From: Acidimicrobiia bacterium
GTDB taxonomy: Bacteria; Actinomycetota; Acidimicrobiia; Spongiisociales; ZC4RG35
Assembly: GCA_041599115.1 (NCBI GenBank)
Contig: JBFHXF010000003.1
Location: 1-52,669 of the forward strand
Direction of reading: 5' to 3'
DNA length: 52,669 bases
Shown in pieces: positions 20,488 to 37,398 of this stretch. The position numbers and the translations under genes were made by a program. The notes beneath the pieces were generated by a model. The model had not been told where the DNA came from and did no database searches. It worked only from the letters and a program-made list of their open reading frames with translations. Position 1 is the stretch's first letter, and the number at the start of each line of letters is the position of its first letter.

Positions 20488-20567
20488 CGCCGCATCATAA
20501 GACAGCTCGAGGGGCCCGGGTCCATCCGCTCGACCACCTGTGGAATCCCCCTAGCATTGGGTTGGTC

Positions 20568-21518: not shown

Positions 21519-21520
21519 CG

Positions 21521-23844: not shown

Positions 23845-23856
23845 GAGGAGTCTCGC

Positions 23857-25091: not shown

Positions 25092-26225
25092 CTATTTCTT
25101 CTGCATCCGCTCCAGAACTGCCCTGGTGAGACTCTCGATCTCGTCGGACGTGACCGCGCCCCTCTCCCACAAGACCTGGTTCACCGCACGCCGGACCCGC
25201 GATTCCTGTCGAAGAGAATCCAGGCCACCGCCCCTCTCATCGGCTCTGGTGCCCTGGCTCGGCGTGACCTTCTTCAGAGGGCCCGGGTCCGGGCTGGGGC
25301 CGTCGAAGCCGAGAGCCGCCACCCGTGAGCGCACTGTGTCAGCCGCCTTCTTCATGAGCCCCATCTCTTCGTCGGTGAGGGACAGTTCGACGACTTCGAT
25401 AACTCCCCGACCTCCCAGACGGGCCGGCACTCCGAGGTACACATCGGTGAGCCCGTATTCGCCACGCAGGTAGGCGCAGGCCGAAACGACCCGTCTCTCA
25501 TCGCCGGCAATGGCCGTGGCCATGTCGGCGATCGAAGCCGAAGGCGCCATCCAGGCCGAGCCCCTCGGCAGAAGCGCAACGATCTCCGCACCGCCGTTCC
25601 GGGTGCGCTCGACAAGTTCCTCCACGCGCGAGGCCGGAAGGAGCGAGGTCAGTGGGCGGCCCGCCACATTGGTCAACCGGGGCAACGGCACCATCGTCTC
25701 GCCGTGAGACCCAAGCACGATGGCGTCGACTTGGTCGGGATGGACACCGAGCTCGGCCGCAATGAAATACCGATAGCGGGAGGTATCGAGCTCACCCGCC
25801 ATTCCCACGACCTTCTCCGACGCAAAGCCACTGGCCTTCCACGCCAGAGTCGTCATCTCGTCGAGAGGGTTGGTGACGATGATCAAGATGGCGTTGGGCG
25901 ACCGCCGGCTCACTTCCTCGGTCACCCCCGCGACGATCTCGGAGTTCGTGGCCAAGAGGTCCGAGCGGCTCTGACCGGGCTTGCGGGGAAGGCCCGCGGT
26001 GATGATGACCAGATCCGAACCTTCCGTTGGTCCGTAGTCAGAGCTGCCGACGATGTCGATGGTGTGGCCCCGCAACGGGGCCGACTGAGCGAGGTCCAAG
26101 GCGACTGCCTGAGGCAGGCCTTCGACCACGTCGATGAGGGCCAACGATGTGGCAGTCCGATCCTCGAGCAGACGCAATGCGGTTGTGGCTCCAACCATGC
26201 CCGCGCCGACCACCGATACCTTCAT
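25092..26225 (-). CDS. mdh: LDH-like malate dehydrogenase with C-terminal encapsulation-peptide-like extension
   Basis: VGAGMVG, TAGLPRKPG.SRSDL (MDH Arg), VTNPLD, LDTSR, GSHG, RTRNGGAEIV; ~69-aa tail ending DEIESLTRAVLERMQKK. Confidence 0.88.
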   Translation of the reverse strand: MKVSVVGAGMVGATTALRLLEDRTATSLALIDVVEGLPQAVALDLAQSAPLRGHTIDIVGSSDYGPTEGSDLVIITAGLPRKPGQSRSDLLATNSEIVAGVTEEVSRRSPNAILIIVTNPLDEMTTLAWKASGFASEKVVGMAGELDTSRYRYFIAAELGVHPDQVDAIVLGSHGETMVPLPRLTNVAGRPLTSLLPASRVEELVERTRNGGAEIVALLPRGSAWMAPSASIADMATAIAGDERRVVSACAYLRGEYGLTDVYLGVPARLGGRGVIEVVELSLTDEEMGLMKKAADTVRSRVAALGFDGPSPDPGPLKKVTPSQGTRADERGGGLDSLRQESRVRRAVNQVLWERGAVTSDEIESLTRAVLERMQKK

Positions 26226-26539
26226 GACTCACCTTCACAGCCGCAAGAGTGTTCAACTCTGAGCATCACCGCCGTCACCAGATCCTCCAGGCCGGAGAGA
26301 TCGCGTCCGGTCTTCAGCAGGGCCCGGCGAGCGATCATTCGCACCTTCGACTCCTTCACCAATCGATGAAGGCCGGGCTTGTGGCTCGGTTCAGACCCGG
26401 TGGTCGTCTCGTCGAAGGCCACCCCCAACACCGCGGCCCGGTCCCTGGCCAGAGGGGTCACCAGCGTGTCGTCATCGACGGCGAGCCCGGTACCCGCCGC
26501 CGCAGCGGCTTCCACCTCGGCGCGGGTGACGACTCTCAT
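26222..26539 (-). CDS. Small BMC-associated protein (VTPLARD domain, encapsulation-like helices, CxC tail)
   Basis: MRVVTRAEVE...DTLVTPLARDRAAVLGV resembles the small domain of EutQ-type BMC accessory proteins; ATGA overlaps with both neighbours. Confidence 0.75.
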   Translation of the reverse strand: MRVVTRAEVEAAAAAGTGLAVDDDTLVTPLARDRAAVLGVAFDETTTGSEPSHKPGLHRLVKESKVRMIARRALLKTGRDLSGLEDLVTAVMLRVEHSCGCEGES

Positions 26540-27153
26540 GACTCTCGACCGGGTATTCCGGCCAGAGCTGCCGTGGCTGCGTCCCGTGCGGTGAGGATAT
26601 CGGACTCCAACCCCGAGAGAAAAAGGCGGCCAAAGCGGCCGGCATTGGAAACGTACACGATGTCGATATCGGCGCTCTTTTCGGCTTCGTTGGCGGCGAG
26701 GCTGGCATACGCCGCCGGGAAGACCTCCATGACGCACAGGGTCCGTCCCGGCACGAGCAGCGAGCCCCGGCGAAACTTGTTGATGAGTTGGGCCTGGTGC
26801 GGGTCGACGTTGGTGATCACCTGGCTCGAGGCCACGACCGGTCTGAAACGGTCTTCCTCGGACACGCCGAGGTAGTCGAGGATCGCCCCGCCCGCTGCTC
26901 TGACCGCGGCCTGGTCGTAGGAGTGCACCTCCAGCAGCCCGAACTCCCGTTCGATGAACTGGGTGGCGGGCCGGACCGGCGCCGCCTTCAAGGCAGCATC
27001 GGCCACGGCGAATATCTCATTCGAAGGTGCCATCTCCACGAACAACTCGGCCATCCCCGCAACCGGGACATCACCCTGAACGGTGGCCCCAACGTAGGCC
27101 GCATACTGGGGCTGCATGCGATCTATGAAAACGTAGGCCCTCAGTTCGCTCAT
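26536..27153 (-). CDS. BMC-T tandem-domain shell protein, double-stacking (CcmP/BMC-Tdp) type
   Basis: ELRAYVFIDRMQPQYAAY, EMAP, EREFGLLEVHS, PAAYASLAANEAEKSA, GRFGRLFLSG. Confidence 0.92.
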   Translation of the reverse strand: MSELRAYVFIDRMQPQYAAYVGATVQGDVPVAGMAELFVEMAPSNEIFAVADAALKAAPVRPATQFIEREFGLLEVHSYDQAAVRAAGGAILDYLGVSEEDRFRPVVASSQVITNVDPHQAQLINKFRRGSLLVPGRTLCVMEVFPAAYASLAANEAEKSADIDIVYVSNAGRFGRLFLSGLESDILTARDAATAALAGIPGRES

Positions 27154-27154
27154 C

Positions 27155-28636
27155 TCAGACTCCTTGCAACGGCCGGTCCAGACGGGCGAGGACCCGGTGG
27201 ATGAGGTCTTCTGCCATGGCCTGACCGTTATTGGCCAGGTTGGCCAGACCCGATGGGTGGGCATTCGAGGCGTTCATCAGTTCACGCCAATCGCGTATTC
27301 CGCGGGCGACCCTCTTGCGGTTGATGAGGTGCAGCGGTCCGATGTTGTCCGCTGTGATGGTGCCGCCCCAGGTACCGGTGCCCAACATGAAGGACGGCGA
27401 CAACCCCGCGGTGCCGCCCATTGCCCCGAAACAGGACGGGGTGTTGACCAGGACGCGGAAGGCTCTCATACGGGCGCCATATGCCGCCGCCACCCGCTGA
27501 TCGGATGCCCATATCGCCGCCGTGTGTCCGTCGCCGCCATAGCGGAGCAATTCTCCGGCGCGGGCAAAGCCCTCGTCTGTGCCGCCCGTCTCATACCACT
27601 TGAGGGTGGAGGTGAGGATCTCTTTCGATAGAGGATGTTCGGGACCTACCCCTTGTGGAGTCACCACCAGGACCGTCGTCGAGGGATCAACTCTCAGCCC
27701 CGCCCGCTCGGCGAGGACCTGGGGGGACTGTCCCACCAGCGCCGGATTGACCGCTCCCTCCGAGGTGAGAACGACGGCCTCAAGCCTCTTCGTCTCGTCG
27801 TCCGTGAGGAATCTCGCCCCCGCCATCTCGAAGGTCTGACGGGTGCGGATCGCAATGCCTTTGTCGACGACCACGGCCTGTTCGGAGGCACACGGGGTCC
27901 CGAAGTCGAAGGTGCAACTGGCGATGGTCCCCGTCACGCAGTCGTCCAGGTCGCCCACAGACTGGTGGATGTAGGAGGGCACGTTCCCCGGGCCCACTGC
28001 ATACGTCGGTTTGCCCGATGAGTAGGCCGCCTTGACCATGGCTATCGACCCTGTGGCGAGGACGACATCCACCGCCCAGTGCGACCAGAGCTCCTGAGTT
28101 CCTGGCAGCGACACCTCGGTCATGCACTGCACCAACCCCTCGGGAGCTCCGACGGATGAGAGGGCCTTCACCAGTGTTTCGGCGGCAGCAACTGACGCTT
28201 TCATGGCGCGCGGGTGGGGGGCCATGACGATCGCGTTGCGTGCCTTGACCGCGATGAGAGCCTTGAAGAAGACGGTTGATACCGGGTTGGTGGTTGGAAT
28301 CAGGGCGGCGATCACGCCCATCGGCTCGGCTATCTCGACAACCCCCGCCTCCGCCCCGGCCGAGATAACCCCGACGGTGTGGAGGGGGGCGATTGCCTCG
28401 TACACATCGATTGCGTTGAATAGATCCTTGATGAGCTTGTGATCAGACCGGCCATAACCGGTTACTTCCACCGCCAGCTCCGACAGCCCTGGAGAGGCTC
28501 GACGGGCGGCCTGGGACATGGCCTCTACCGCACGATCGACCTCTGGCTGCGAGGCGTCGGCCCAGAGCCGCGCCGCTTCCCTGGCTTTGACCGCGAGGTC
28601 GCGCGCCTGCTGAATCGACTGCAGGTCGGTGTCCAC
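27155..28636 (-). CDS. Acylating (CoA-dependent) aldehyde dehydrogenase, EutE/PduP/AdhE-N family, with C-terminal encapsulation peptide
   Basis: PTTNP.ST, HPRA, AYSSGKP, GPGN, FDFGTPCASEQ (catalytic Cys), EIL, GHTA, LGTGTWGG; tail MAEDLIHRVLARL. Confidence 0.93.
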   Translation of the reverse strand: MDTDLQSIQQARDLAVKAREAARLWADASQPEVDRAVEAMSQAARRASPGLSELAVEVTGYGRSDHKLIKDLFNAIDVYEAIAPLHTVGVISAGAEAGVVEIAEPMGVIAALIPTTNPVSTVFFKALIAVKARNAIVMAPHPRAMKASVAAAETLVKALSSVGAPEGLVQCMTEVSLPGTQELWSHWAVDVVLATGSIAMVKAAYSSGKPTYAVGPGNVPSYIHQSVGDLDDCVTGTIASCTFDFGTPCASEQAVVVDKGIAIRTRQTFEMAGARFLTDDETKRLEAVVLTSEGAVNPALVGQSPQVLAERAGLRVDPSTTVLVVTPQGVGPEHPLSKEILTSTLKWYETGGTDEGFARAGELLRYGGDGHTAAIWASDQRVAAAYGARMRAFRVLVNTPSCFGAMGGTAGLSPSFMLGTGTWGGTITADNIGPLHLINRKRVARGIRDWRELMNASNAHPSGLANLANNGQAMAEDLIHRVLARLDRPLQGV

Positions 28637-28639
28637 GGA

Positions 28640-29959
28640 CTACCTGTAGAAGCCGAACACGCGGCAAACGCCGGACTCAGCGCATCGCCCTCCGATGGCG
28701 CCGTGGTCCACGTGATGCAACATCTCGTCGGGACTCATGCCTGCGAGCCCGAGGCTCTTGATGGTTCTTCCCTCTTCCCACCAATCGATCCCGCACATGG
28801 CGGAGGCGAGATGAACCATCGAATCGATCGTCGGCGTGGGAACACCGAGAGCGCAGCCAAGGCTGGCAATGGGGACCAGTGAGTTGGGGACATCATCGAG
28901 GATGTGGTTCTGGGCGAGCAAGTGACTCGGAGCGGTGAACCCTTCGTAATAGGGGTTGCGCATCAAGGCGTCGTAGATGTCTTCCCCCACGACGTGGTAG
29001 CTCTCGCGATACCAATCGAGCAACGACCACACCTCTCGCAGACCCAAAGCCCGTGCCACCGACTGCTTCTCCTTGTCGATCTTGTCCATCACGAGGCTGG
29101 CAATGGTCCGGGTGACCTGGTGTTTGTAGAACTTGAGATCCTCCCCTGCCGCGGTTCGCTCGATCACCTGGGTGTTGAGCATCACCGTTCCCGGATGAAC
29201 GATGGGCGCGACGTTGTTGAGGCTGGTCTCCAAGACGTTCTGAGCCGGTTCGATTTGCGGGTAGAGATCACGCACATACTCCATCAAGCCGTCGTTGTCA
29301 GAGGCGGGCAGGGCCGCAGCCCGCATCCTGAACTTCTCCTTGAGGATCTCCACCTTGTTGGGACCGCGTCTCTCTGCGGCGTATATGAAGGTTTGGGTCT
29401 CTCCCAGATAGATCCTGGCCGAACAGGCGAACCGGTTGAGCGTCCGAGCGAATTCCAGGGCGCCCCCGGTCCGCCCGGGGTTGAGCAACACCCGTTGGCC
29501 GTCGCGCAGCATGGGAGCCAGCAGCGAGGCATAGACCCGATGAGACAAGGCGGGAGCCACCACCATGATCAGGTCGGCCCCCTTGACCGCCTCATCGAGG
29601 CTGCGAGTGACCTTGGCCACCTTGCCGAAGCCCTGGACCTCAGGCCCGATGACCTCCACCCCGCCCGACTCCTCGAGCGGCTCGATCTCCCAGGAAAAGG
29701 GCGACCAAACCGTCACCTGAAAACCGAGAATCGCCATGTGGCCGGCCATGGCCAGGCCACCGTTTCCGCCACCGAGTATGGAGACCTTCATCGACCCGGC
29801 CCTCTTGGCGCGTCGGGAGGGATCGACAGCTCGTTCGAACGTCACCGCACCACGAGACTGCATTGGGGCATCGGCCGGGACACGGGCCCCGGTTCCCGTC
29901 ACCCCATGTGTCTGAAGTTCGGCGATGATTGCATCGACTAGGTCGTCGTTGCCTGCCAC
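28640..29959 (-). CDS. NAD(P)-dependent opine (octopine/nopaline) dehydrogenase family protein with 56-aa N-terminal encapsulation-peptide extension
   Basis: ILGGGNGG, LNPGRTGGALEF, ETQT, LETSLNN..PIVHP, DKEK, DDVPNSLVP, GRT..SLGL. Strong SD AAGGAGG before GTG; N-terminus NDDLVDAIIAELQ. Confidence 0.88.
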   Translation of the reverse strand: MAGNDDLVDAIIAELQTHGVTGTGARVPADAPMQSRGAVTFERAVDPSRRAKRAGSMKVSILGGGNGGLAMAGHMAILGFQVTVWSPFSWEIEPLEESGGVEVIGPEVQGFGKVAKVTRSLDEAVKGADLIMVVAPALSHRVYASLLAPMLRDGQRVLLNPGRTGGALEFARTLNRFACSARIYLGETQTFIYAAERRGPNKVEILKEKFRMRAAALPASDNDGLMEYVRDLYPQIEPAQNVLETSLNNVAPIVHPGTVMLNTQVIERTAAGEDLKFYKHQVTRTIASLVMDKIDKEKQSVARALGLREVWSLLDWYRESYHVVGEDIYDALMRNPYYEGFTAPSHLLAQNHILDDVPNSLVPIASLGCALGVPTPTIDSMVHLASAMCGIDWWEEGRTIKSLGLAGMSPDEMLHHVDHGAIGGRCAESGVCRVFGFYR

Positions 29960-29974: not shown

Positions 29975-30265
29975 TTACTTGCCCTGCAAGAGGATTGCTT
30001 CGGTGTCCTGATGAGGTCGTGGAATGACATGCACACTCACCAATTCGCCAACCTTGGCGGCAGCAGCGGCACCGGCGTCGGTGGCCGCCTTGACGGCTCC
30101 GACATCGCCTCGCACTATGACCGTGACGAGACCGCCTCCCACCATCTCCTTGGAGACCAGGGTTACGTTGGCAGCCTTCACCATCGCGTCGGCGGCCTCG
30201 ATTGCGCCAACCAATCCCTTAGTTTCAATCATTCCCACTGCGCTGAGACTTTGCCCGTCAGCCAT
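29975..30265 (-). CDS. BMC-H hexameric shell protein (EutM/PduA/CcmK family)
   Basis: [26 protein letters not shown]...GDVGAVKAA...VHVIPRPH. Confidence 0.97.
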
Positions 30266-30362: not shown

Positions 30363-30659
30363 TCAACGAACCTTGACATAGGTGGCTTCGTCGCCCGCCT
30401 GGATCGAGTCCAGGATGCTCACGATCGAGACATCTGTGGGTGTCGATCGGGTTGACTCGGGAACTCTTGCCGCCGATCCCGTGGCGACCAGCACGATCTC
30501 CCCGACCCCGGCGCCCACGGTGTCGACGGCGACGAAATGCTCACCGTCTTCTAGTTTTCCGTCAGTGCCGCACGGGGCGCACAGCATCAGCTTCTGTCCC
30601 GTCAGATGGGTATCTTTTGCTGTTGATACGACGGTACCGACGATCTTGGCCAGCCTCAT
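30363..30659 (-). CDS. BMC-P pentameric vertex protein (EutN/CcmL family)
   Basis: MRLAKIVGTVVSTAK...VAVDTVGAGVGEIVLVATGSAAR...DVSIVSILD. Confidence 0.96.
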   Translation of the reverse strand: MRLAKIVGTVVSTAKDTHLTGQKLMLCAPCGTDGKLEDGEHFVAVDTVGAGVGEIVLVATGSAARVPESTRSTPTDVSIVSILDSIQAGDEATYVKVR

Positions 30660-30669
30660 TTCGCCTCCA

Positions 30670-31986
30670 TCAAAAACTCGCCATGTAACGGTCGACCTCG
30701 GTCCTGGTCACGGTGTTCACTGGGTCCTCCTCGTCGGAACTCATCATGAAGTCGTATTCCCGCTGGGCCTGTCCCACCAAGGTCTCGATGAGCATCGGAT
30801 GAAACAGGCCCTTGACCATAGATGACTTGTTGAAGCGCTCGATCGCCTCGGGGGTGCTGGTGGGCAACGGCTCGGCATCGGCCAATTCGTAGGCGTTGCC
30901 CGTCGTCATCGGACCCGGCTCCAACTCGTTGACCACACCATCTATCCCCGCGGCGATCTGTCCACCCACCAGGAGGTACGGGTTGCTGTCGGCAGTTCCA
31001 TCGCGCTGTTCGATCCGGACCGCGTTGGGTTCGCCCTCGATGACCCGGATCCCCAAGGTCCTGGTGTCGTGGCCCCATGCGGTGTTTACCGGGCAGAACG
31101 TATAGGGCTGACGTCTCTTCATGGCGTTCGGAGTCGGCGCGGCCAAAAGAGCGAGGTCTGCCATGTGACGTTGCAGACCACCCAGGTAATGAAGTCCCAG
31201 GGTGGAGAGCCGCCCATCGTCGGAGAAGGCATTGACGCCGTCCCTCCAGAGTGATTGGTGGACGTGGAAGCCGGAGCCCGACTCGTCGAAGAACGGTTTT
31301 GCCATGAAGGTGGCCAGAAGACCATGGCCGGCGGCGATCTCCTTGACGCAGTTGCGAAAGAGCATTGCGTTGTCGGCGGCGCTGACTGCGTCGGAGTAGC
31401 GCAGGTTCACTTCGAATTGACCGGCCGAGTACTCGGGGTTGGAGACTTCCACCTGTATCCCGAACTCGGTACAGAGATTGCGAATCGGCCCGACAACGTA
31501 TTCGAATCGGCTTCCTCTAGCAAGGCCGTACACCGCGATACCGCTGTCGAGTGGGCGCTTGGTCTCGGGGTCGAGAAGATAGAACTCGAGTTCGGTTCCG
31601 ACTTTGACCTCATACCCGAGGTCCCTGGCCCGGTCCACTGCGGTGAGGAGCACCGCTCGAGGATCCACCGGCACCGGCCCGCCGTCGGGAATCTCTTCGG
31701 CACGGCACAGCGTGAGAACAACGCCCTCCTCCCAGGGAACTTTCCTCAGGGTGCCTGGAATGGGCACTATGTGGACATCGGGATACCCGTTGTCGAAGTT
31801 GCCATAGGGGGTATCCCAGATGTCAGAGACCATATCCATCTGGAATAGCGCGTTTGCCAGGGCAACCCCGTGGTGCGCCGTGCCCTCCCACATGTTGGCC
31901 TGCAACCTCTTGCCTCGGGCTATCCCGTTCAGGTCACCGATGGCGAGTACGACGGTATGGGTGCCTTCGGGGAGAGAGTCCATCAT
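30670..31986 (-). CDS. Glutamine-synthetase-family gamma-glutamyl:amine ligase (GlnA4/PuuA-like)
   Basis: DLNGIARGK, ELEFYL, EYSAGQFE, ATFMAKP, GSGFHVHQS, RIEQR..ADSNPY. Flap region reads QPYTFCP, with Phe where ammonium-using GS has Glu (PGYEAP). Confidence 0.85.
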   Translation of the reverse strand: MMDSLPEGTHTVVLAIGDLNGIARGKRLQANMWEGTAHHGVALANALFQMDMVSDIWDTPYGNFDNGYPDVHIVPIPGTLRKVPWEEGVVLTLCRAEEIPDGGPVPVDPRAVLLTAVDRARDLGYEVKVGTELEFYLLDPETKRPLDSGIAVYGLARGSRFEYVVGPIRNLCTEFGIQVEVSNPEYSAGQFEVNLRYSDAVSAADNAMLFRNCVKEIAAGHGLLATFMAKPFFDESGSGFHVHQSLWRDGVNAFSDDGRLSTLGLHYLGGLQRHMADLALLAAPTPNAMKRRQPYTFCPVNTAWGHDTRTLGIRVIEGEPNAVRIEQRDGTADSNPYLLVGGQIAAGIDGVVNELEPGPMTTGNAYELADAEPLPTSTPEAIERFNKSSMVKGLFHPMLIETLVGQAQREYDFMMSSDEEDPVNTVTRTEVDRYMASF

Positions 31987-32080
31987 GCGTCCCTTCTTGA
32001 ATTGGTGCCCGGATCGTATCCGCCGCGATGATTGGCCGACGGGGCGAATACCTCGATCCGCTCTATGGAAGGAACAATTC

Positions 32081-33502
32081 CTACCACGTGAACTCCTTGT
32101 CGATCCCGGCGAGTTTCACTCCGGTGAAGGCGGAAGCCTGCAAACTGAGGGCGCGCAGGTCCTCCTTCTCCAGGTTGTGAACACTCGACTTACCGCAAGC
32201 CTTGGCCAGAAGGCTGATTTCCATGGTCCAAGCCGTGAGAAAACGCGCTACTCGCTCGGCGCCGGCGGCAACGTCCATCCGCTCTTCCAGGGCGGGCTCC
32301 TGTGTCGTGATTCCGACGGGGCAGAGACCGGTGTGGCAATGGTGGCAGCGGCCGGGTGCGGTGCCGAGCTTCTCGTAATCCTCGAAATACCGGGGTGAAT
32401 TGCAGCCCAGCGCCATCAGTGAGGCGAATCCGATCATCACTGCGTCGGCGCCCAAGGCGAGACACTTGGCGGCGTCGGTGCCTGACCGAATACCGCCGGC
32501 AGCGACGAGCTTGACCTCATCGGCCAGTCCGGTCTCCTCGAGTGCCTCCCGGGCGGCGGATATGGCGGACATCGTGGGGACCCCGGTGTGGTCCAGCAAG
32601 AGCTCCGGGGATGCGCCGGTCCCACCCTCCGCCCCATCGAGGACAATCACATCGGCTCCGGCTTTGGCGGCAACGGCTACGTCGAAACGCGGGCGGGTTG
32701 CGCCCATCTTGACGAAGATCGGGATTCGATAGTCGGTCGCCTCCCGGAGCTCCTCGATCTTGACCTTGAGATCGTCACCACCAAGGAAGTCGGGGTGCCG
32801 CACCGTTGACCGCTGGTCGACTCCCGCCGGAAGGGTGCGCATGCCGGCCACTCGCTCCGATACCTTCATCCCGAGCAGAAGGCCGCCGGTCCCCGGTTTT
32901 GCTCCCTGTCCGACGACGATTTCGATCCCGTCGACCATCCGGAGATGGTCGAGGTCCAGCATGTAGCGGCTTGGGGTCATCTGATAGACGAGACGTTGGG
33001 ATGCCGTCCGCTCATCCTCCAGCATGCCCCCTTCACCGGTGCAGGTCATGCTCCCCACCTTGGACGCGCCATAGCCCAAGGCCGCTTTGGCCGAGGCGGA
33101 CAGGGCGCCGAAGGACATCGAGGCGATGTAGATGGGGATGTCCAGCTCGAGGGGTTGTTCGACAAGACCCGGCCGGTCGCCGAGCACGGTTGTGGTGTCA
33201 CAGCTCTCGCGGTAACCCTCCAGGGGAAGCCGGGTCATTGTGGCCGGGACGAAGACCAAGTCATCGAGTGTGGGAAACCGGGGATTGAAAGCCGAAAAGC
33301 CCCTTATCTGATAGCGGCCGAGCTGGGCGATGGCGTGTGCCTCGGCGATGGCCTCGGGAGTCCATCTCGGCGAATTGCCGCGCTCGTAGGACGACGGCAC
33401 GCCCGCCGGGCGGCCCGGAATGCTGCCGTCAGAGAACCCGATGAGTTCCTCGCTCGGCATCTCGAAGGGGTAGGTGTACTCGTTGCTCAAATCATCAGCC
33501 AT
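32081..33502 (-). CDS. FMN-binding glutamate-synthase-family protein (GlxD/MgsC-like)
   Basis: SMSFGALS, TGEGG, GQGAKPGTGG, GGIRSG.D.AKCLALGAD, CHHCHTGLCPVGITTQ; start MADDLS at 33502. Confidence 0.9.
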   Translation of the reverse strand: MADDLSNEYTYPFEMPSEELIGFSDGSIPGRPAGVPSSYERGNSPRWTPEAIAEAHAIAQLGRYQIRGFSAFNPRFPTLDDLVFVPATMTRLPLEGYRESCDTTTVLGDRPGLVEQPLELDIPIYIASMSFGALSASAKAALGYGASKVGSMTCTGEGGMLEDERTASQRLVYQMTPSRYMLDLDHLRMVDGIEIVVGQGAKPGTGGLLLGMKVSERVAGMRTLPAGVDQRSTVRHPDFLGGDDLKVKIEELREATDYRIPIFVKMGATRPRFDVAVAAKAGADVIVLDGAEGGTGASPELLLDHTGVPTMSAISAAREALEETGLADEVKLVAAGGIRSGTDAAKCLALGADAVMIGFASLMALGCNSPRYFEDYEKLGTAPGRCHHCHTGLCPVGITTQEPALEERMDVAAGAERVARFLTAWTMEISLLAKACGKSSVHNLEKEDLRALSLQASAFTGVKLAGIDKEFTW

Positions 33503-34185
33503 GCTTTTGAATCCCTGCTCGTGAAGTACCACAACCCCTGGGCGGAGATGATCTTCTTCCAATCGCGGTTGCTGCTTTCCAGACTGCGGGTGGAGAGCAG
33601 CTTTTCCACGTCTTCGACCTCGTGGGACTCGGGCTCCACGACTTTCGAGTCGACGCCGAGCGACCCGATCGGGCCGGCCACCCAGACCTCACCCCCCCAC
33701 AGCGAATCGGCGGTGGCCTCGCCTGCCCCGCCCAGGGCGATGATGCGGCCGGCGTGACCCATGAAACCGCTCAGGTAGCCGATGCGACCCTCGACGATGA
33801 TGTCGCCACCTTTCATCGCCACCCCGCAACGAGGGCCGGCATCTCCCTTTATGTGGATGAGCCCGCCCCGCATCGAGGCGCCAACGCTCATCCCCGCATA
33901 GCCGTGGACCACTATCTCTCCCGAGGCCATCGCCTCGCCCAGGCCCCAACCGGCGTCACGGGTGATCTCGATGTCGGCCCCGTTGTTCAAGCCGCCGCAG
34001 TAGTAACCGACGCTTCCCTCGAAGGTCACCCGAGCCCCATGGGGGAGGCCGATCCCGAGGTTGTGCCGGGACAGGGTGTTGGTGACCACTACATCCTGGC
34101 CCATCTCGAGGGCGGCACGGATTGCCAGGTTGATCTCTCTGGTCGGCCGATCACCGGCTTCTATGTTGACAACGTCTCCCATCAC
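33487..34185 (-). CDS. GXGXG glutamate synthase alpha-C-like protein (GlxC/MgsB-like)
   Basis: GSVGYYCGG, G.AMASG, AGPRCGVAMKGGDIIV, GFMGHAG beta-helix repeats. Confidence 0.88.
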   Translation of the reverse strand: MMGDVVNIEAGDRPTREINLAIRAALEMGQDVVVTNTLSRHNLGIGLPHGARVTFEGSVGYYCGGLNNGADIEITRDAGWGLGEAMASGEIVVHGYAGMSVGASMRGGLIHIKGDAGPRCGVAMKGGDIIVEGRIGYLSGFMGHAGRIIALGGAGEATADSLWGGEVWVAGPIGSLGVDSKVVEPESHEVEDVEKLLSTRSLESSNRDWKKIISAQGLWYFTSRDSKAWLMI

Positions 34186-35123
34186 ACCCTCTCCGCCACT
34201 TTTATGTCCCAGGTGGCGGTCCGATCCGGTCCGTCATAATTGATCACGTCGACCTCCCGGCGATAGACCTTGCGTAGCGCCTGCTCCTCGGTCGCCACGG
34301 CCAGGTCGGGACCGTCCTCGACGACGGCTACGGGCTTGATGGCCCATCGATCCTTGGCCAGCCCAAGCCGATTCGGCGTCGCTATCAAGTAGGTGAAGAC
34401 CCCGTCGAGAGCACGAAGGCTGAGAGTCAGGGCTTCATCGAGACCCCTGCCGTGAGCCATTTGGTCGGAGATCCAGATGGCAATCAGTTCCGAATCGTTG
34501 TCGGTCTTGAAACGATATCCCTGACGGGTCAGCCTGTCTCGGAGCAGGTGGTAATTGGTCAGCTGACCATTATGGACGATGGCCACATCGGGGAATGGCC
34601 GAGCCCAGAACGGGTGACTGGCCGTCGGCGACACCCGGGATTCGGTGGCCATGCGGGCGTTGGCGATGCCATGACTTCCGATGAAATCGGCGACCGGATG
34701 CTTGGCCGCCACATCCAGGGCGCTCCCGACATCCTTGATGATCTCGAGGGACTTGCCTACCGACTGAATCTCGAAACGGGGAAGGTCGTCGGCGACGGCG
34801 AGCCACTCGGCGAGGCCCGCCGAAGGCTCCGACATGACCATCCTCACCGAGACGTGTTGCTGGGTGGTGGTGTCCCATGTCGGATCCTCGAGAAAGTCGC
34901 CTCCGAACCCGCGTAGCACCGAGAGGAACCGATCCAAATCCGACGACAGCAGATCCCGATCGCTGGTCACCACCCGGACGACGTACCCCGCGTCTCGGGG
35001 AGCGCCGTAGAGAGCGAATCCCGTGGAGTCTCCGCCACGGTGCACCTGGGCCTGCATCATGGCGACCAGGTCTGAGCCGATGGGCCCAGGCTCAGCAAGG
35101 ATTCGGCCGGCAATACCGCACAT
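34182..35123 (-). CDS. Class II (Ntn) glutamine amidotransferase (GlxB/MgsA-like)
   Basis: MCGIAG N-terminal Cys, HRGGDSTG, RMATES, HPF, HNGQLTN, TDNDSE; SD GGAGGAG. Confidence 0.9.
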   Translation of the reverse strand: MCGIAGRILAEPGPIGSDLVAMMQAQVHRGGDSTGFALYGAPRDAGYVVRVVTSDRDLLSSDLDRFLSVLRGFGGDFLEDPTWDTTTQQHVSVRMVMSEPSAGLAEWLAVADDLPRFEIQSVGKSLEIIKDVGSALDVAAKHPVADFIGSHGIANARMATESRVSPTASHPFWARPFPDVAIVHNGQLTNYHLLRDRLTRQGYRFKTDNDSELIAIWISDQMAHGRGLDEALTLSLRALDGVFTYLIATPNRLGLAKDRWAIKPVAVVEDGPDLAVATEEQALRKVYRREVDVINYDGPDRTATWDIKVAERV

Positions 35124-35148
35124 CAGGTCTCCTCCGCCCGGAGAATAG

Positions 35149-35171
35149 CTTTTGTATACAGTACACAAAAG
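35149..35171. promoter_or_regulatory. Palindromic operator candidate upstream of the glxB-like gene
   Basis: CTTTTGTATACAGTACACAAAAG is a near-perfect 23-bp inverted repeat. It is AT-rich in a GC-rich context and contains a TACTGT -10-like hexamer on the minus strand. Confidence 0.7.
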
Positions 35172-35178
35172 TTGGGGA

Positions 35179-35772
35179 TCAGAATCTGAGAATTCTCTCG
35201 ACCAGGCCCAGTTGGGACTTCGCCTCGTCGAGCCGGATGGGCACGGTGTAAGGGGGGAGCGGCGGGATGAACACGGCGGTGATGGTCCCCGGCAGTGAAA
35301 TCAACTCCACTTGCCGACCCCCGACCGCCTCCATGACACGAAGCTTTTTCAGCTCGGAGCCTTCGATAAGACTGCGGATCCGGGTATCGCCGGAGAGCGC
35401 CGCTGCCAGGGCTGCGCTCTGAGCACCTCCCGATCGCACGGAGAACCGTTTCTTGTCGAATCGATAGGTCAGGATGTCCGGATTCGCCGCGACACTCCCC
35501 CGGCGCCCCACCCACATGGTGTCGATGAGCACGCCGAACAGACGGGTCTGGCCCTTGAACCCGACCTCAATGACCACATCGTCGTCGAGGTTTATCCGGG
35601 CCGAGCGAAACTCGGGATCGACCTGCACGTCTATCGATCGGCTCTGCAGCGCCGTGATCGGCTCTTGCAGGATTCGCCGCCGCCGACCCTTGTAGAGCAA
35701 CGAGGCACGACGTCGCAAAGAGAACGGAGCCGACCCGTCGGGTCGGCTCCGTTCAGACCGGTTGGGTGTCAC
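35179..35772 (-). CDS. Hypothetical protein, DUF3156-like
   Basis: Overlaps the permease stop. C-terminal pattern (SGG..AALAAALSGD..LKKLRV..VELISLPG..PPLPPYTVPI) recalls DUF3156 proteins found next to APC amine permeases; family call is from memory. Confidence 0.6.
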   Translation of the reverse strand: MTPNRSERSRPDGSAPFSLRRRASLLYKGRRRRILQEPITALQSRSIDVQVDPEFRSARINLDDDVVIEVGFKGQTRLFGVLIDTMWVGRRGSVAANPDILTYRFDKKRFSVRSGGAQSAALAAALSGDTRIRSLIEGSELKKLRVMEAVGGRQVELISLPGTITAVFIPPLPPYTVPIRLDEAKSQLGLVERILRF

Positions 35773-37190
35773 AGCTTCTGGTGGACTTCTTCCTCGAGAT
35801 GCGAAGCGACGCCGGAGGTCCCTCGCAAGGCGTAGGAAACGATCGCCGCAACCAGCGACCCGGCGAATATCCAGAGCGACCGGACCCCGAAGAGGTCATG
35901 GGCGCCTTGGAATGCGTAATAGATCGCCAGGACCGTGAGCACGATACCGACGACCGGCACCCAGAGTTGGAGCTGGAACGGCCGGTCGACGTCGGGATTG
36001 GCGTAGCGCGAGGTGATCACCATCACGTGATAGAGCACGTAGATGATCAGCCAGGCATACGCCGCCGAATAGACCAGTTCCAACACGTCTCCGAATGCGA
36101 GCGCCGCCCAGGTGTAGACCACACCCGTGACGATGATCGCGGTCCACGGTGTCCGAAAGCGAGGGTGCAGGGAGCTGAACACTCGCGACACCGGGCCGAA
36201 GAAGTGACCATTACGCGAAACGCCGTAGAGCACCCTGGGCATGGCGGCATAGACGATCGCCATCGAGGCCAATGTGGCCAGGAACGTCGCCAGCGCCATC
36301 AAGGTACGTCCGGTGTCACCGAACATGGCCTGCCCCACCGCCAGTTGGGCGCAGCCGCCTTCGCATCCTGCGGCGCTGGTAGCCGTCGCCAACCAGTCAC
36401 TGGTCGGCTGGGTTCCACCTACGCCGAAGCCCATCAGCAGCGATGTGAACAGGATCACCACCATGGCGGCGATGATCCCACGGGGGATATTCCTGTTCGG
36501 GTCCTTGGTCTCCTCGGCCAGTGGGGCAACGAACTCGATGCCGACGAAGCTCCAGAATGCCAGGGCCACGCCACCGGCCATGACAGTCGTCCAATCGAAC
36601 ATCCCGACGCCGGCATTCCAGTTGCCGGCGCTCCACCCCCCGGTGTCACCCAGGCCGAAAAAGCCGGCCGCGCCGAAGAACCAGCGCAGCCCCAGCATGC
36701 CGATGATCAGGTACAACTCGACCTTTGCCAGCACCTCGATCCCGAGCAGGTTGGGGATGATCGCCAGGATCGTCATAGCGACGATCCAGGGCCAGACGTC
36801 ACCCGTCGCGCTGAAGAGCGCCTGGAACCCGAAGGCACCGGCCAGGGTCTCCCCTGCACCGGCGAAGGCAAACATGCCATAGAAGGCGAAGGCCAGGAAG
36901 ATTCCCGTTATACCCGCCAGGGCACCCGTTCCCGGAACCGACGCCGCTCCGTAGTCGTACAGGGCTCCCGCCTTGGGGTACGTCGTGGCAAGCTCGGCCA
37001 CCGCCAAACCCAGCAACATGTTGATCACAAAGGCGACGACCAGCGCTGCAATGAAAGCGGTGCCGATCGAGAACCAACCGTTGAAGTCGCTGACCAGGGT
37101 CGTTGCCGCCACGATGAGTCCGACTCCTGCGACGAATACGTCACGTGTGCCGAGGGCTTTGATCAAGCCTGACTCTGTGGACTGTGTCAT
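35769..37190 (-). CDS. APC family amino acid/amine permease
   Basis: About 12 hydrophobic segments, ELATTYPKAG, FVGIEFVAPLAEETKDP..NIPRG, RPF; SD GAGGAGG before MTQSTE. Confidence 0.92.
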   Translation of the reverse strand: MTQSTESGLIKALGTRDVFVAGVGLIVAATTLVSDFNGWFSIGTAFIAALVVAFVINMLLGLAVAELATTYPKAGALYDYGAASVPGTGALAGITGIFLAFAFYGMFAFAGAGETLAGAFGFQALFSATGDVWPWIVAMTILAIIPNLLGIEVLAKVELYLIIGMLGLRWFFGAAGFFGLGDTGGWSAGNWNAGVGMFDWTTVMAGGVALAFWSFVGIEFVAPLAEETKDPNRNIPRGIIAAMVVILFTSLLMGFGVGGTQPTSDWLATATSAAGCEGGCAQLAVGQAMFGDTGRTLMALATFLATLASMAIVYAAMPRVLYGVSRNGHFFGPVSRVFSSLHPRFRTPWTAIIVTGVVYTWAALAFGDVLELVYSAAYAWLIIYVLYHVMVITSRYANPDVDRPFQLQLWVPVVGIVLTVLAIYYAFQGAHDLFGVRSLWIFAGSLVAAIVSYALRGTSGVASHLEEEVHQKL

Positions 37191-37246
37191 AGGCCTCCTC
37201 CCGTTCCGGCCGCTCTGTCCCACGGCACTCGCCGTAGCGGCCGATA

Positions 37247-37263
37247 TTGGATACAGTATGCAT
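37247..37263. promoter_or_regulatory. Second operator candidate between the permease and gntR
   Basis: TTGGATACAGTATGCAT shares the palindromic core TG-N-ATAC-A-GTAY-N-CA with the site at 35149-35171. Confidence 0.65.
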
Positions 37264-37398
37264 CTGGGACCGTCCCTGCAACTGATCCTGAAAACCCGAT
37301 CAGGGGGGAGCAGCGGCGAAACATGGATCCGGCTGCCCTTATCGGGGGGAGATCGGTATCCTTCCCGGGTAAAACGAAGCAACCGCGAGCCCTCAGAT

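What the first reader, a model, noticed from the sequence alone, without database searches (positions are those of the whole stretch)
25092..26225. Encapsulated malate dehydrogenase in place of the usual alcohol dehydrogenase for NAD+ recycling
The MDH keeps the malate-specifying PRKPG motif but has a ~69-aa tail: a Pro/Gly linker and helices ending DEIESLTRAVLERMQKK. No alcohol dehydrogenase is in the locus. Both the opine DH and the ALDH would produce NAD(P)H, so aldehyde dismutation could not balance redox. A lumenal oxaloacetate-to-malate reaction would act as an organelle redox shuttle (inference).
Basis: partly seen in the sequence, partly recalled or inferred. Interest (0 to 1): 0.75.

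Follow-up and report, generated by a model that had tools for sequence, protein, structure and literature searches.

The report
Microcompartment malate dehydrogenase with docking tail
This is an extra malate dehydrogenase gene, built into a bacterial microcompartment operon and carrying a tail related to a known microcompartment docking module, so it probably recycles NAD+ inside the compartment, but nobody has tested this.

Summary
Window 25092-26225, on the minus strand, encodes a 377-aa LDH-like malate dehydrogenase (MDH). All catalytic residues are present. A 73-aa C-terminal extension follows: a variable Pro/Gly/Ala linker and two conserved amphipathic helices.

It is the last gene of a microcompartment (BMC) operon: gamma-glutamyl-ligase-like and glutamate-synthase-like genes, BMC-P, BMC-H, an opine-dehydrogenase-like gene, an acylating aldehyde dehydrogenase (ALDH), BMC-T, a small protein, then MDH. 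No alcohol dehydrogenase or PduL-type phosphotransacylase lies in the locus.

- A separate tail-less housekeeping mdh sits on another contig and is conserved across the family.
- Every tail-bearing relative whose neighbourhood could be read lies in the same BMC locus.
- New here: the tail is not a plain encapsulation peptide. It is homologous to the two-helix module of the neighbouring small protein, which is an EutQ-N-terminus-like shell-cargo linker. In EutQ that part binds cargo peptides.

The locus fits the catalogued but uncharacterised "MIC2" type, whose tables already list an LDH/MDH protein. This scan has noted the N-terminally tagged sister form seven times on other DNA.

BMC association is well supported. 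The oxaloacetate-to-malate NAD+ shuttle stays an inference. Two related loci lack the MDH.

The parts
25314..26225 (-). MDH catalytic core, residues 1-304. LDH-like (tetrameric-type) L-malate dehydrogenase with GAGMVG, D32, R81 (in PRKPG), R87, D147, R150 and H174.
   Evidence: Pfam. TIGR01763 scores 368 bits, above its 351.85 cut-off. End-to-end alignment to solved MDHs such as 7aob and 1guz. The catalytic columns are invariant in 44 sequences.
25227..25313 (-). Flexible linker, residues about 305-333. It is rich in Pro/Gly/Ser/Ala and varies in length and sequence among relatives.
   Evidence: Alignment A1. Low hydrophobic moment.
25095..25226 (-). Conserved two-helix module, residues 334-377. 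Helix 1 is LDSLRQESRVRRAVNQVLWERG and helix 2 is SDEIESLTRAVLERMQKK. It is homologous to the H3/H4-like part of the neighbouring EutQ-N-like protein.
   Evidence: Conserved in 39 tail-bearing sequences. hhalign of the tail profile against the small-protein profile gives probability 96% and E 4e-9 over 43 columns; the reversed control gives 1.2%. Hydrophobic moments are 0.67 and 0.53.
26222..26539 (-). Small 105-aa protein, an EutQ-N-terminus-like linker without the cupin domain. It has an H1/H2-like domain (..TPLARDRA..LGV), a variable linker, an H3/H4-like two-helix module and a C-terminal CxC motif. Its stop codon overlaps the MDH start codon (ATGA).
   Evidence: junction. Its profile finds 14 EutQ (PF06249) proteins among the 58 hits of 150 aa or longer that were scanned. 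hhalign against an EutQ-family alignment gives probability 99.15% and E 4e-19, matching residues 2-95 to E. coli EutQ 3-97.
26536..27264 (-). BMC-T shell protein, CcmP-like with tandem BMC domains. The true start is probably downstream of the ALDH stop at 27155.
   Evidence: NCBIfam NF053796, 258.5 bits, residues 40-241. Pfam BMC.
27155..28636 (-). CoA-acylating aldehyde dehydrogenase (EutE/PduP/AdhE-N-like). A C-terminal encapsulation-peptide-like helix MAEDLIHRVLARL (about 27179-27217) follows a variable linker.
   Evidence: Pfam Aldedh; TIGR02518-like 460 bits, below its cut-off. The C-terminal helix is conserved in loci of the C-tail form.
28640..29959 (-). Opine/octopine-dehydrogenase-like enzyme. 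An N-terminal encapsulation-peptide-like helix NDDLVDAIIAEL (about 29912-29950) and a linker of about 40 aa precede the Rossmann fold.
   Evidence: Pfam Octopine_DH 3.7e-35. Sequence. The N-terminal helix is conserved in 16 loci.
29975..30265 (-). BMC-H shell hexamer protein.
   Evidence: Pfam BMC 3.3e-29..
30363..30659 (-). BMC-P shell pentamer protein.
   Evidence: Pfam EutN_CcmL 3.8e-27.
30670..35168 (-). Upstream pathway genes. A glutamine-synthetase-like ligase (30670-31986) is followed by a glutamate-synthase-like trio: FMN domain (32081-33562), GXGXG (33487-34185) and class-II amidotransferase (34182-35168).
   Evidence: Pfam and NCBIfam. The gene order is conserved in related loci.
35179..38118 (.). 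Unknown 197-aa protein (35179-35772, minus strand), amino-acid permease (35769-37430, minus strand) and a divergent GntR/FCD regulator (ORF 36973-38118, plus strand; the domains start at residue 160).
   Evidence: Pfam. Conserved near the locus in relatives.

Best explanation
The gene encodes a second, dedicated L-malate dehydrogenase that belongs to a MIC2-type metabolosome.

Shown:
- It is a catalytically intact, NAD-type LDH-like MDH.
- It is the last gene of the BMC operon, and its start is translationally coupled to the preceding gene.
- It carries a flexible linker plus a two-helix module homologous to the H3/H4-like part of the neighbouring EutQ-N-terminus-like linker protein.

Inferred:
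- The module recruits the tetrameric MDH into the cargo core. It would do so by helix-helix association with the encapsulation-peptide helices of the ALDH (C-terminal) and the opine-DH-like enzyme (N-terminal), and/or with the small linker protein.
- Inside the shell the MDH re-oxidises the NADH made by the acylating ALDH, and possibly by the opine-DH-like enzyme. It reduces imported oxaloacetate to malate, and the malate leaves.
- The housekeeping MDH or the respiratory chain then re-oxidises the malate.

This would replace the alcohol dehydrogenase of classical metabolosomes. All of the aldehyde could then go to acyl-CoA. It would also keep lumenal NADH low enough to pull an unfavourable NAD-linked amine oxidation. 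That last point rests on textbook redox potentials, recalled: NAD+/NADH about -320 mV and oxaloacetate/malate about -166 mV.
For: Enzyme identity:
- TIGR01763 scores above its cut-off.
- The core aligns end to end at about 50% identity with solved tetrameric MDHs.
- D32, R81, R87, D147, R150 and H174 are invariant in 44 aligned sequences.

Dedicated paralogue:
- A separate PRK05442-type MDH lies on C253.
- It has orthologues in 41 of 48 family genomes.

Locus membership:
- An MDH homologue lies in 15 of 18 loci fetched with the opine-DH-like protein.
- In 5 loci (the window, L005, L006, L009, L010) the small gene's stop overlaps the MDH start by 4 bases (ATGA or GTGA).

Searches that started from the tail or the MDH, not from BMC genes:
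- Class sample: among 401 genomes only G000 and G174 cover the tail. G174's copy lies 3.8 kb from a BMC-H gene.
- Phylum sample: the tail query hit 2 of 401 genomes, G000 and G589, and G589's copy lies in the full locus.
- Metagenome scan: 3 loci. The two with enough flank (L028, L029) hold the full locus.
- Housekeeping LDH-like MDHs of 47-56% identity stop at query residue about 305. Where both genes are on one contig they lie 0.24-1.07 Mb from BMC-H (G058, G202, G110).

Tail anatomy and homology:
- Variable linker plus conserved amphipathic helices.
- hhalign of the tail against the small protein: probability 96%, E 4e-9.
- hhalign of the small protein against the EutQ family: probability 99%, E 4e-19, spanning EutQ 3-97.
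- In Salmonella EutQ, H1/H2 (residues 9-41) bind the shell and H3/H4 (62-99) bind cargo encapsulation peptides, with Kd about 6-7 uM for EutC1-20 (PMC12487888, passages read).

Sister form: the MDH carries instead an N-terminal H1/H2+H3-like arm (probability 96.8%, E 2.3e-10). Its 9 copies whose contig also carries a BMC-H gene lie 2.3-3.5 kb from it.

Co-cargo tags: the ALDH and the opine-DH-like enzyme carry terminal helix-plus-linker tags.

Need for a recycler:
- No ADH family matched in the window.
- No PduL PTAC was found in the genome, which is 94% complete.
- A 2024 paper lists MIC2/3 among the types whose NAD+ regeneration 'has yet to be determined' (PMC11626177, passage read).
Against: - There is no experimental or expression evidence of any kind.
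- Localisation inside, rather than on, the shell is inferred.
- Two related loci (L015, L016) end with the small gene followed by a permease and have no MDH. Their genomes hold only one tail-less MDH elsewhere. A lumenal MDH is therefore not indispensable for this BMC type.
- The reaction and cofactor of the opine-DH-like enzyme are unknown. Its beta2 end (VTVWSP) lacks the acidic residue usual in NAD-specific folds. That reading comes from the sequence and is not tested.
- Direct profile similarity of the tail to EutQ proteins is weak (probability 17%, E 1.4e-3). The EutQ link is transitive, through the small protein.
- Shell permeability to oxaloacetate and malate is unknown, and cellular oxaloacetate is scarce (general knowledge).
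Confidence: 0.55

Rival explanations
1. The enzyme is BMC-associated and recycles NAD+, but its physiological substrate is not oxaloacetate. It could be another 2-oxo acid or an aldehyde, for example glyoxylate, pyruvate, or the pathway's own aldehyde. The LDH/MDH-family protein PvmO was predicted to act in that last way as the 'alcohol dehydrogenase' of PVM compartments.
For: Axen et al. 2014 treat LDH/MDH-pfam proteins of PVM and MIC1 loci as candidate core alcohol dehydrogenases (PMC4207490, passage read). The amine substrate, and hence the aldehyde, is unknown. The BMC copies form clades separate from the housekeeping MDHs.
Against: The malate-specifying Arg (R81 in PRKPG) and all catalytic residues are invariant in the 39 tail-bearing sequences. 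The protein passes the MDH equivalog cut-off, and it scores far below the L-LDH cut-offs: 232.6 against 303.55 and 236.1 against 339.
Confidence: 0.15
2. The MDH is mainly a structural hub. A tetramer with four EutQ-H3/H4-like modules would be a multivalent cross-linker that condenses peptide-tagged cargo (ALDH, opine-DH-like) into the core. Catalysis would be secondary.
For: The tail is homologous to the module that in EutQ binds cargo peptides and tends to aggregate (PMC12487888). LDH-like MDHs of this type are tetramers (names of the solved relatives; quaternary state recalled).
Against: All catalytic and NAD-binding residues are invariant in the tail clade, so the chemistry is under selection. 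The small EutQ-N-like protein already supplies a linker. Two loci do without the MDH.
Confidence: 0.12
3. The MDH is not lumenal. It would be a cytosolic or shell-surface enzyme co-expressed with the operon to handle malate or oxaloacetate linked to the products of the pathway. The tail would serve another interaction, for example regulation by the small Cys-containing protein.
For: No localisation data exist. EutQ-type modules bridge shell and cargo, so topology cannot be read from homology alone. L015 and L016 function without the MDH.
Against: A housekeeping MDH already exists. The tail or arm occurs only on the BMC-locus copies. The sister form carries the shell-binding H1/H2-like domain. 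The same kinds of N-terminal modules are fused to other enzymes of types known as BMC cargo: PTAC, enoyl-CoA hydratase and SDR.
Confidence: 0.13

Closest known systems
LDH/MDH-family (pfam02866) protein of MIC2 and MIC1 BMC loci (Sutter et al. 2021, Nat Commun 12:3809, PMC8217296; Axen et al. 2014, PMC4207490)
   Same: The locus make-up is the same. The catalogue's HMM table lists HMM02866_2_mic12 (Ldh_1_C) and HMM00120_1_mic2 (Gln-synt_C). Axen et al. weighed the LDH/MDH-pfam protein as the possible NAD+ recycler of MIC1. It has an AldDh, no PTAC and no AlcDh.
   Different: Seven earlier notes of this scan describe the MIC2 MDH with an N-terminal EutQ-like arm. Here the tag is C-terminal and corresponds to the other half (H3/H4-like) of the EutQ-type linker. 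I could not read the catalogue's Supplementary Data 2 (PDF and large zip files), so I cannot say whether the C-terminal form is described there.
EutQ N-terminal region (residues 1-99) of the Salmonella Eut microcompartment (Sci Adv 2025, PMC12487888)
   Same: The small neighbouring protein aligns with EutQ 3-97. The MDH tail aligns with that protein's H3/H4-like part. In EutQ, H1/H2 bind the shell and H3/H4 bind cargo encapsulation peptides.
   Different: Here the module is fused to an enzyme's C-terminus without H1/H2. The small protein lacks EutQ's cupin (acetate kinase) domain and ends in a CxC motif. Direct similarity of the tail to EutQ is weak. No binding data exist.
PduQ / EutG alcohol dehydrogenases of Pdu and Eut metabolosomes
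   Same: It holds the same logical role: a lumenal enzyme that re-oxidises the NADH produced by the acylating aldehyde dehydrogenase (role as summarised in PMC8217296).
   Different: The fold is different and, by sequence, so is the electron acceptor: an external dicarboxylate rather than the pathway's own aldehyde. No carbon would be diverted to alcohol.
PvmO, the LDH/MDH-family protein of planctomycetal PVM compartments
   Same: It is an LDH/MDH-fold protein encoded in a BMC locus and was proposed as the cofactor recycler.
   Different: PvmO was predicted to reduce lactaldehyde. The catalogue uses a separate HMM for it (HMM02866_1_pvmeut against _2_mic12). I did not compare the sequences.
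Peroxisomal/glyoxysomal malate dehydrogenase shuttle of yeast and plants (recalled, no call)
   Same: An organelle-targeted MDH paralogue re-oxidises NADH that cannot cross the boundary. It reduces imported oxaloacetate and exports malate.
   Different: That organelle is membrane-bounded with PTS targeting. Here the boundary is a protein shell and the tag is of the EutQ type. This is an analogy only.
MNdh / BMC-T(SE) electron-export system (PNAS 2024, PMC11626177)
   Same: It is an alternative solution to the same problem, lumenal NAD+ regeneration without an alcohol dehydrogenase.
   Different: It moves electrons through an Fe-S shell protein. That paper lists MIC2/3 as having neither system.

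Membership tests
LDH-like (TIGR01763-type) NAD-dependent L-malate dehydrogenase, EC 1.1.1.37 | Full-length profile score above the curated equivalog cut-off | tested here: met
   368 bits against a cut-off of 351.85, residues 1-303. The L-LDH models score below their cut-offs.
LDH-like (TIGR01763-type) NAD-dependent L-malate dehydrogenase, EC 1.1.1.37 | Arg at the substrate-discriminating position (LDH numbering 102), plus the catalytic Arg109, Asp168, Arg171 and His195 equivalents | tested here: met
   R81 (PRKPG), R87, D147, R150 and H174 are present. They are invariant in 44 aligned sequences and align to solved MDHs. The mapping to LDH numbering is recalled.
LDH-like (TIGR01763-type) NAD-dependent L-malate dehydrogenase, EC 1.1.1.37 | Rossmann GxGxxG and an acidic residue at the end of beta2 (NAD rather than NADP) | tested here: met
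   GAGMVG at residues 7-12. D32 is invariant.
LDH-like (TIGR01763-type) NAD-dependent L-malate dehydrogenase, EC 1.1.1.37 | Oxaloacetate/malate activity | not testable with these tools
   This needs an enzyme assay.
BMC cargo protein with a terminal targeting extension | A terminal extension that is absent from homologues not linked to BMCs | tested here: met
   Housekeeping MDHs end at query residue about 305. The tail was found only on locus copies.
BMC cargo protein with a terminal targeting extension | A poorly conserved flexible linker followed by conserved amphipathic helix or helices | tested here: met
   Alignment A1. Hydrophobic moments. No structure model could be obtained.
BMC cargo protein with a terminal targeting extension | Physical encapsulation in the shell | not testable with these tools
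   This needs shell purification or imaging.
EutQ-type shell-cargo linker module (H3/H4 region) | Sequence homology to the H3/H4 region of EutQ-family N-termini | tested here: inconclusive
   Tail against the EutQ-N-like small protein: probability 96%, E 4e-9. Small protein against the EutQ family: probability 99.15%, E 4e-19, covering EutQ 3-97. Tail directly against the EutQ family: only 17%, E 1.4e-3, though in the same region, EutQ 69-103.
EutQ-type shell-cargo linker module (H3/H4 region) | Binds encapsulation peptides of co-cargo | not testable with these tools
   This needs ITC or NMR with the ALDH and opine-DH-like peptides, as was done for EutQ and EutC (PMC12487888).
MIC2-type BMC locus (metabolosome with incomplete core) | Shell genes plus a pfam00171 AldDh, with neither PTAC nor AlcDh | tested here: met
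   BMC-H, BMC-P, BMC-T and ALDH are present. No ADH family matched in the window. No PF06130 match in the genome.
MIC2-type BMC locus (metabolosome with incomplete core) | Gln-synt_C and Ldh_1_C proteins in the locus (the catalogue's HMM00120_1_mic2 and HMM02866_2_mic12) | tested here: met
   Both Pfam families are present in the operon. The HMM names were read in Supplementary Data 6.
MIC2-type BMC locus (metabolosome with incomplete core) | Assignment by the catalogue's own locus classifier or locus description (Supplementary Data 2, BMC Caller) | not tested
   The files are not readable here. The type label therefore rests on the HMM-name table and on earlier notes of this scan.

The most novel reading that the evidence does not exclude
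The compartment runs a true metabolite redox shuttle across a protein shell. A tetrameric MDH is docked through an EutQ-H3/H4-like 'peptide receptor' tail directly onto the encapsulation peptides of the NADH-producing ALDH and opine-DH-like enzymes. It turns imported oxaloacetate into exported malate. This raises the effective acceptor potential so that an NAD-linked oxidation of an N-alkyl-glutamate becomes feasible and all of the aldehyde is kept as acyl-CoA. It would be a prokaryotic counterpart of the peroxisomal malate shuttle. It would also be the first case of a cargo enzyme that carries the receptor half, rather than the peptide half, of the BMC targeting system.
Probability: 0.3. Interest if true: 0.75.

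Novelty: new variant of a known kind. Interest (0 to 1): 0.5.

Why it matters
How metabolosomes without an alcohol dehydrogenase regenerate NAD+ is stated as an open question for MIC2 and several other types (PMC11626177). A dedicated, tagged MDH gives a concrete hypothesis that a bench experiment can test: oxaloacetate-dependent turnover of the encapsulated ALDH.

The tail also extends the EutQ mechanism described in 2025. The two halves of that linker occur as separate, portable tags on an enzyme: H3/H4-like at the C-terminus here, and H1/H2+H3-like at the N-terminus in the sister form. This is useful for understanding core assembly and for engineering cargo loading.

The locus occurs in marine and soil Acidimicrobiia and Thermoleophilia and may process small amines. 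That last point is inference.

Tried and rejected
Attempts that gave nothing usable:
- Word-based search with the tail alone (residues 300-377) found only the query.
- Pfam at E up to 10 gave no family for the small protein or for the N-arm.
- Complex prediction of the small protein (A4) with the MDH tail (A1, residues 326-377) returned 'no answer': score 0.03 against a mark of 0.32, controls not run. I treat this as no information.
- Structure prediction of the MDH with alignment A1 was accepted once and failed. Six further requests were not sent because the queue was full. There is therefore no model and no fold search.
- Sequencing runs: 4 DNA holders from one marine-metagenome study and no RNA holder listed.
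It was repeated with 3 rows.
- hhalign of the tail against the N-arm of the sister form showed no similarity (probability 0.3%).
- hhalign of a single E. coli EutQ sequence against the small protein was weak (probability 44%, E 2.3e-4, N-domain only).

Readings considered and rejected:
- The tail as a frameshift or read-through artefact. It is conserved in 39 sequences.
- This gene as the only mdh of the genome.
- Contig C253 as contamination. Its MDH is 82% identical to that of the same-genus genome G150.
- A hidden ADH or PduL-type PTAC in the window.
- The locus as the SPU-type BMC that is common in the class. G150, G058 and G082 have DeoC-type loci without an MDH or an opine-DH-like gene.

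Literature searches:
- 'bacterial microcompartment' + 'malate dehydrogenase' + 'encapsulation peptide': 1 unrelated review.
- 'microcompartment' + 'opine dehydrogenase': 0 papers.
- N-methylglutamate and MIC2 terms, and oxaloacetate and NAD+-regeneration terms.

None of these searches turned up a description of an MDH-based shuttle or of this C-terminal tail.
Full report
**1. What is at the coordinates**

The ORF at 25092-26225 lies on the minus strand and gives a 377-aa protein, P0001.
- Pfam finds Ldh_1_N (residues 1-141) and Ldh_1_C (145-301).
- NCBIfam's bacterial malate dehydrogenase equivalog TIGR01763 scores 368 bits against a cut-off of 351.85, over residues 1-303. The L-lactate dehydrogenase models stay below their cut-offs.
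- Against the PDB, the core aligns end to end at about 50% identity with LDH-like malate dehydrogenases (7aob 2.7e-94, then 1guz, 3nep, 1guy and others). These proteins stop within a few residues of query position 304.
- The NAD-binding GAGMVG and D32 are present, as are the malate-specifying Arg in PRKPG (R81), R87, D147, R150 and H174. All are invariant in a 44-sequence alignment. The mapping to LDH numbering is from memory.

Residues about 305-377 match no family. They form a Pro/Gly-rich linker followed by two stretches with the highest (0.67, window from residue 339) and a high (0.53, window from 363) helical hydrophobic moment in the protein.

**2. The neighbourhood**

On the same strand, upstream to downstream:

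| Coordinates | Gene |
|---|---|
| 35769-37430 | amino-acid permease |
| 35179-35772 | unknown 197-aa protein |
| 34182-35168 | class-II amidotransferase |
| 33487-34185 | GXGXG protein |
| 32081-33562 | glutamate-synthase FMN domain |
| 30670-31986 | glutamine-synthetase-like ligase |
| 30363-30659 | BMC-P |
| 29975-30265 | BMC-H |
| 28640-29959 | opine/octopine-dehydrogenase-like protein |
| 27155-28636 | CoA-acylating aldehyde dehydrogenase |
| 26536-27264 | CcmP-like BMC-T |
| 26222-26539 | 105-aa protein |
| 25092-26225 | MDH |

- A GntR/FCD regulator is divergent.
- The small gene's stop overlaps the MDH start (TCATGAAG).
- The opine-DH-like protein begins with NDDLVDAIIAEL, followed by a linker of about 40 aa.
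- The ALDH ends with a linker and then MAEDLIHRVLARL. Both are typical encapsulation-peptide arrangements.
- None of the 53 long ORFs scanned in the window matches an alcohol dehydrogenase family.
- The genome (94% complete, 267 contigs) has no PduL-type phosphotransacylase match. It has one marginal Fe-ADH match, on another contig.

**3. Is it an extra mdh?**

Yes. PF00056 finds two genes in the genome. The second lies at G000:C253:475-1461. It is a 328-aa tail-less MDH of the PRK05442 type (550 bits against a cut-off of 271).

That type is the family's housekeeping enzyme. 41 of the 48 other family genomes sampled have it at 63-84% identity (82% in the same-genus genome G150), and so do 34 of 35 high-quality genomes. 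This sample includes one genome flagged unpublished, G420.

**4. Is the MDH a fixed part of the locus?**

I searched one genome per species with the opine-DH-like protein. This gave 18 loci, all from Acidimicrobiia, other Actinomycetota or Thermoleophilia/Gaiellales MAGs. tblastn with the window's proteins shows the same gene set in all of them, and an MDH homologue in 15 of 18. The three without:
- L007 is a 2.4-kb contig that ends inside the ALDH.
- L015 and L016 continue beyond the small gene into a permease and a GntR gene without any MDH. Their genomes (G401, G402) hold only one tail-less LDH-like MDH, elsewhere.

Two architectures exist.
- **Form A** is the window's form. It is complete in L006, L008, L020 and L021, and cut by contig ends in L005, L009, L010 and L022. 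The MDH is last in the operon and carries the C-terminal tail.
- **Form B** occurs in L011, L012, L013, L014, L017, L018 and L019, at about 43% identity. The MDH precedes the opine-DH-like gene, has no C-terminal tail, and has an N-terminal arm of about 90 aa.
- In form A loci the ALDH has the C-terminal helix. In form B loci it ends right after the core.

**5. Does the tail occur outside BMC loci?**

Three searches started from the MDH or its tail rather than from BMC genes.

(i) Class sample, 401 genomes.
- 162 have an MDH match.
- Only G000 and G174 cover the tail.
- The many 47-56% identical copies end at query residue about 305.
- Ten copies at 40-44% identity include G154, whose contigs are too short to judge. 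The other nine are G336, G226, G086, G038, G294, G018, G142, G369 and G186.
- Comparison with the PF00936 search of the same sample (82 of 401 positive) puts G174's copy 3.8 kb, and those nine copies 2.3-3.5 kb, from a BMC-H gene on the same contig.
- Housekeeping copies that share a contig with BMC-H lie 0.24-1.07 Mb away (G058, G202, G110).

(ii) Phylum sample, 401 genomes, tail-only query. It gave 2 hits, G000 and G589. G589's copy sits in the complete locus.

(iii) Metagenome scan with a 3-row tail alignment. It gave 3 confirmed loci. L028 and L029 hold the whole locus, and L030 is a 1.9-kb contig.

Caveats:
- L024 (from G174) and L037 (from G589) give the same hit figures as L006 and L008. 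They may be the same records, so I do not count them as additional.
- G212, G254 and G589 are flagged unpublished. Only the phylum-sample hit rests on one of them (G589).
- In the 5.8-billion-protein collection, 38 clusters besides the query carry the tail: 33 at 59-73% identity and 360-395 aa, and 5 at 50-54%. Scores then drop sharply to proteins of 307-311 aa that cover 81% of the query. Their genomic context could not be read.

A maximum-likelihood tree puts all C-tail MDHs in one group (support 95/78). It puts the sampled housekeeping MDHs in another (97/98) and form B in a third (94/87). The root, on a very long outgroup, is unreliable.

**6. What the tail is**

In alignment A1 the linker varies in length and sequence. 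Two segments are conserved: 'L..LR..SRVRRA..QVLWE.G' and 'E...LT.AV.ERL'.

The same two-helix pattern sits in the C-terminal half of the small neighbouring protein.
- Tail profile (39 rows) against small-protein profile (13 rows): probability 96%, E 4e-9, 43 columns, matching the tail to small-protein residues 57-98.
- The same comparison with the small-protein alignment reversed: probability 1.2%.

The small protein's profile was searched against 1.84 billion representatives and found 485 proteins at E<=1e-3. Of the 150 best, 58 are 150 aa or longer. Pfam finds the following among them:

| Hits | Family |
|---|---|
| 14 | EutQ cupin (PF06249), C-terminal to the match |
| 2 | enoyl-CoA hydratase |
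| 1 each | PduL PTAC, short-chain dehydrogenase, methyltransferase, CbiG/methylase, OmpA protein (probably spurious) |

The rest have no family.

Against an alignment of these EutQ proteins plus E. coli EutQ (read from MG1655), the small protein scores probability 99.15% and E 4e-19. Its residues 2-95 match EutQ 3-97.

A 2025 study of Salmonella EutQ (PMC12487888; passages read) dissected this region.
- Residues 1-99 are necessary and sufficient for targeting.
- Helices H1/H2 (9-41) bind the shell.
- H3/H4 (62-99) bind cargo encapsulation peptides (EutC1-20, Kd about 6-7 uM).

My reading is therefore:
- The small protein is an EutQ-type shell-cargo linker without the cupin domain.
- The MDH tail is a copy of its H3/H4-like half.
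- The form B arm matches the small protein's residues 1-77, that is H1/H2 plus the first helix (probability 96.8%, E 2.3e-10).

Direct similarity between the tail and the EutQ proteins is weak (probability 17%, E 1.4e-3, though in the same region). The link is transitive.

**7. How it most likely works**

Shown:
- It is an intact NAD-type MDH.
- It is dedicated to the locus.
- It carries a BMC-specific module.
- Its co-cargo carries peptide tags.
- There is no other candidate recycler in the locus.

Inferred:
- The tail recruits the MDH into the core, plausibly by binding the ALDH and opine-DH-like peptides or the small linker protein.
- In the lumen it re-oxidises NADH with imported oxaloacetate and exports malate.

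The upstream genes resemble the gamma-glutamylamide / N-alkyl-glutamate route for amines: a GS-like ligase plus a glutamate-synthase-like trio. This comparison is from memory, and earlier notes of this scan reached the same idea. The opine-DH-like enzyme would then release the aldehyde.

NAD-linked oxidation of a secondary amine is thermodynamically poor. Coupling it to oxaloacetate reduction would pull it without needing high aldehyde, which an alcohol dehydrogenase would require. This argument uses textbook potentials, recalled, and is mine and untested.

The main counter-evidence is the pair of MDH-less loci (L015, L016) and the total lack of experimental or expression data.

**8. Comparison with what is known**

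- The 2021 BMC catalogue's HMM table lists HMM02866_2_mic12 (Ldh_1_C) and HMM00120_1_mic2 (Gln-synt_C) (PMC8217296, Supplementary Data 6, read whole). Its main text leaves MIC2-7 functionally unassigned (passages).
- Axen et al. 2014 considered an LDH/MDH-pfam protein as the possible recycler of MIC1, by analogy with PVM (passage).
- A 2024 paper lists MIC2/3 among the types with neither known regeneration system (passage).
- Seven earlier notes of this scan, on other genomes, describe the N-arm form. They say that the catalogue's Supplementary Data 2 already mentions it. I could not read that file.
- No note matches this C-tail protein by sequence.
- My literature searches found no description of an MDH shuttle in a BMC or of the C-terminal tail.

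**9. Verdict**

BMC association is strong, and the redox-shuttle role is plausible but untested.
- This is a new variant of a catalogued kind.
- The useful addition is that the tag is the H3/H4-like half of an EutQ-type linker.

Noticed in passing
window 26222-26539 (-): The small 105-aa protein is an EutQ-N-terminus-like linker without a cupin domain. It ends in an invariant CxC motif, conserved in all 13 aligned homologues. The Thermoleophilia loci L020-L022 have a shorter ORF with only the two-helix part and a Cys-rich end. The role of the cysteines is unknown.
   Followed up: partly
window 20466-25083 (+): A gene block converges on the MDH: DeoC-family aldolase, full-length ALDH (21398-22999), a conserved 'half' ALDH of 282 aa (22996-23844, matching Aldedh positions 13-234 only) and a cytochrome P450 (23857-25083). 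The ALDH plus half-ALDH pair also flanks L006. P450 genes also flank L013 and L014. They may belong to the same amine pathway.
   Followed up: partly
L015 13572-16363; L016 10015-12715: In two related loci from larger genomes (6.4-6.8 Mb) the small gene is followed by a permease and a GntR gene, with no MDH. Those genomes have only a tail-less MDH elsewhere.
   Followed up: yes
L026 (G336:C1) 11787-12524: In one form B locus the protein in the opine-DH-like slot is only 26% identical to the window's. No glutamate-synthase-like genes were seen within the 20 kb fetched.
   Followed up: no
window 28640-29959 (-): The Rossmann beta2 end of the opine-DH-like protein reads VTVWSP, with no acidic residue. 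It may therefore prefer NADP. Earlier notes of this scan say that its usual opine-DH active-site residues are replaced.
   Followed up: no
P0165, P0162, P0186, P0230 (hits): The EutQ-N-like module is fused to other enzymes. A short-chain dehydrogenase carries the whole H1-H4-like region at its N-terminus. A PduL phosphotransacylase has two H1/H2-like copies at its C-terminus. Two enoyl-CoA hydratases have it at the N-terminus. It looks like a portable targeting domain.
   Followed up: partly
L023 (G150:C9), L025 (G058:C1), L027 (G082:C8): The commoner BMC type in this class is a DeoC-linked (SPU-like) locus: DeoC, BMC-T, BMC-H, BMC-P, ALDH, BMC-P. The same-genus genome G150 has that type and not the window's. 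G000 has a DeoC gene at window 20466-21518 but no second set of shell genes.
   Followed up: partly
window 46618-49505 (+) and 50090-52382 (-): A two-subunit 2-oxoacid:ferredoxin oxidoreductase and the start of a phenylacetate (Paa) oxygenase cluster lie downstream. They appear unrelated to the BMC locus.
   Followed up: no
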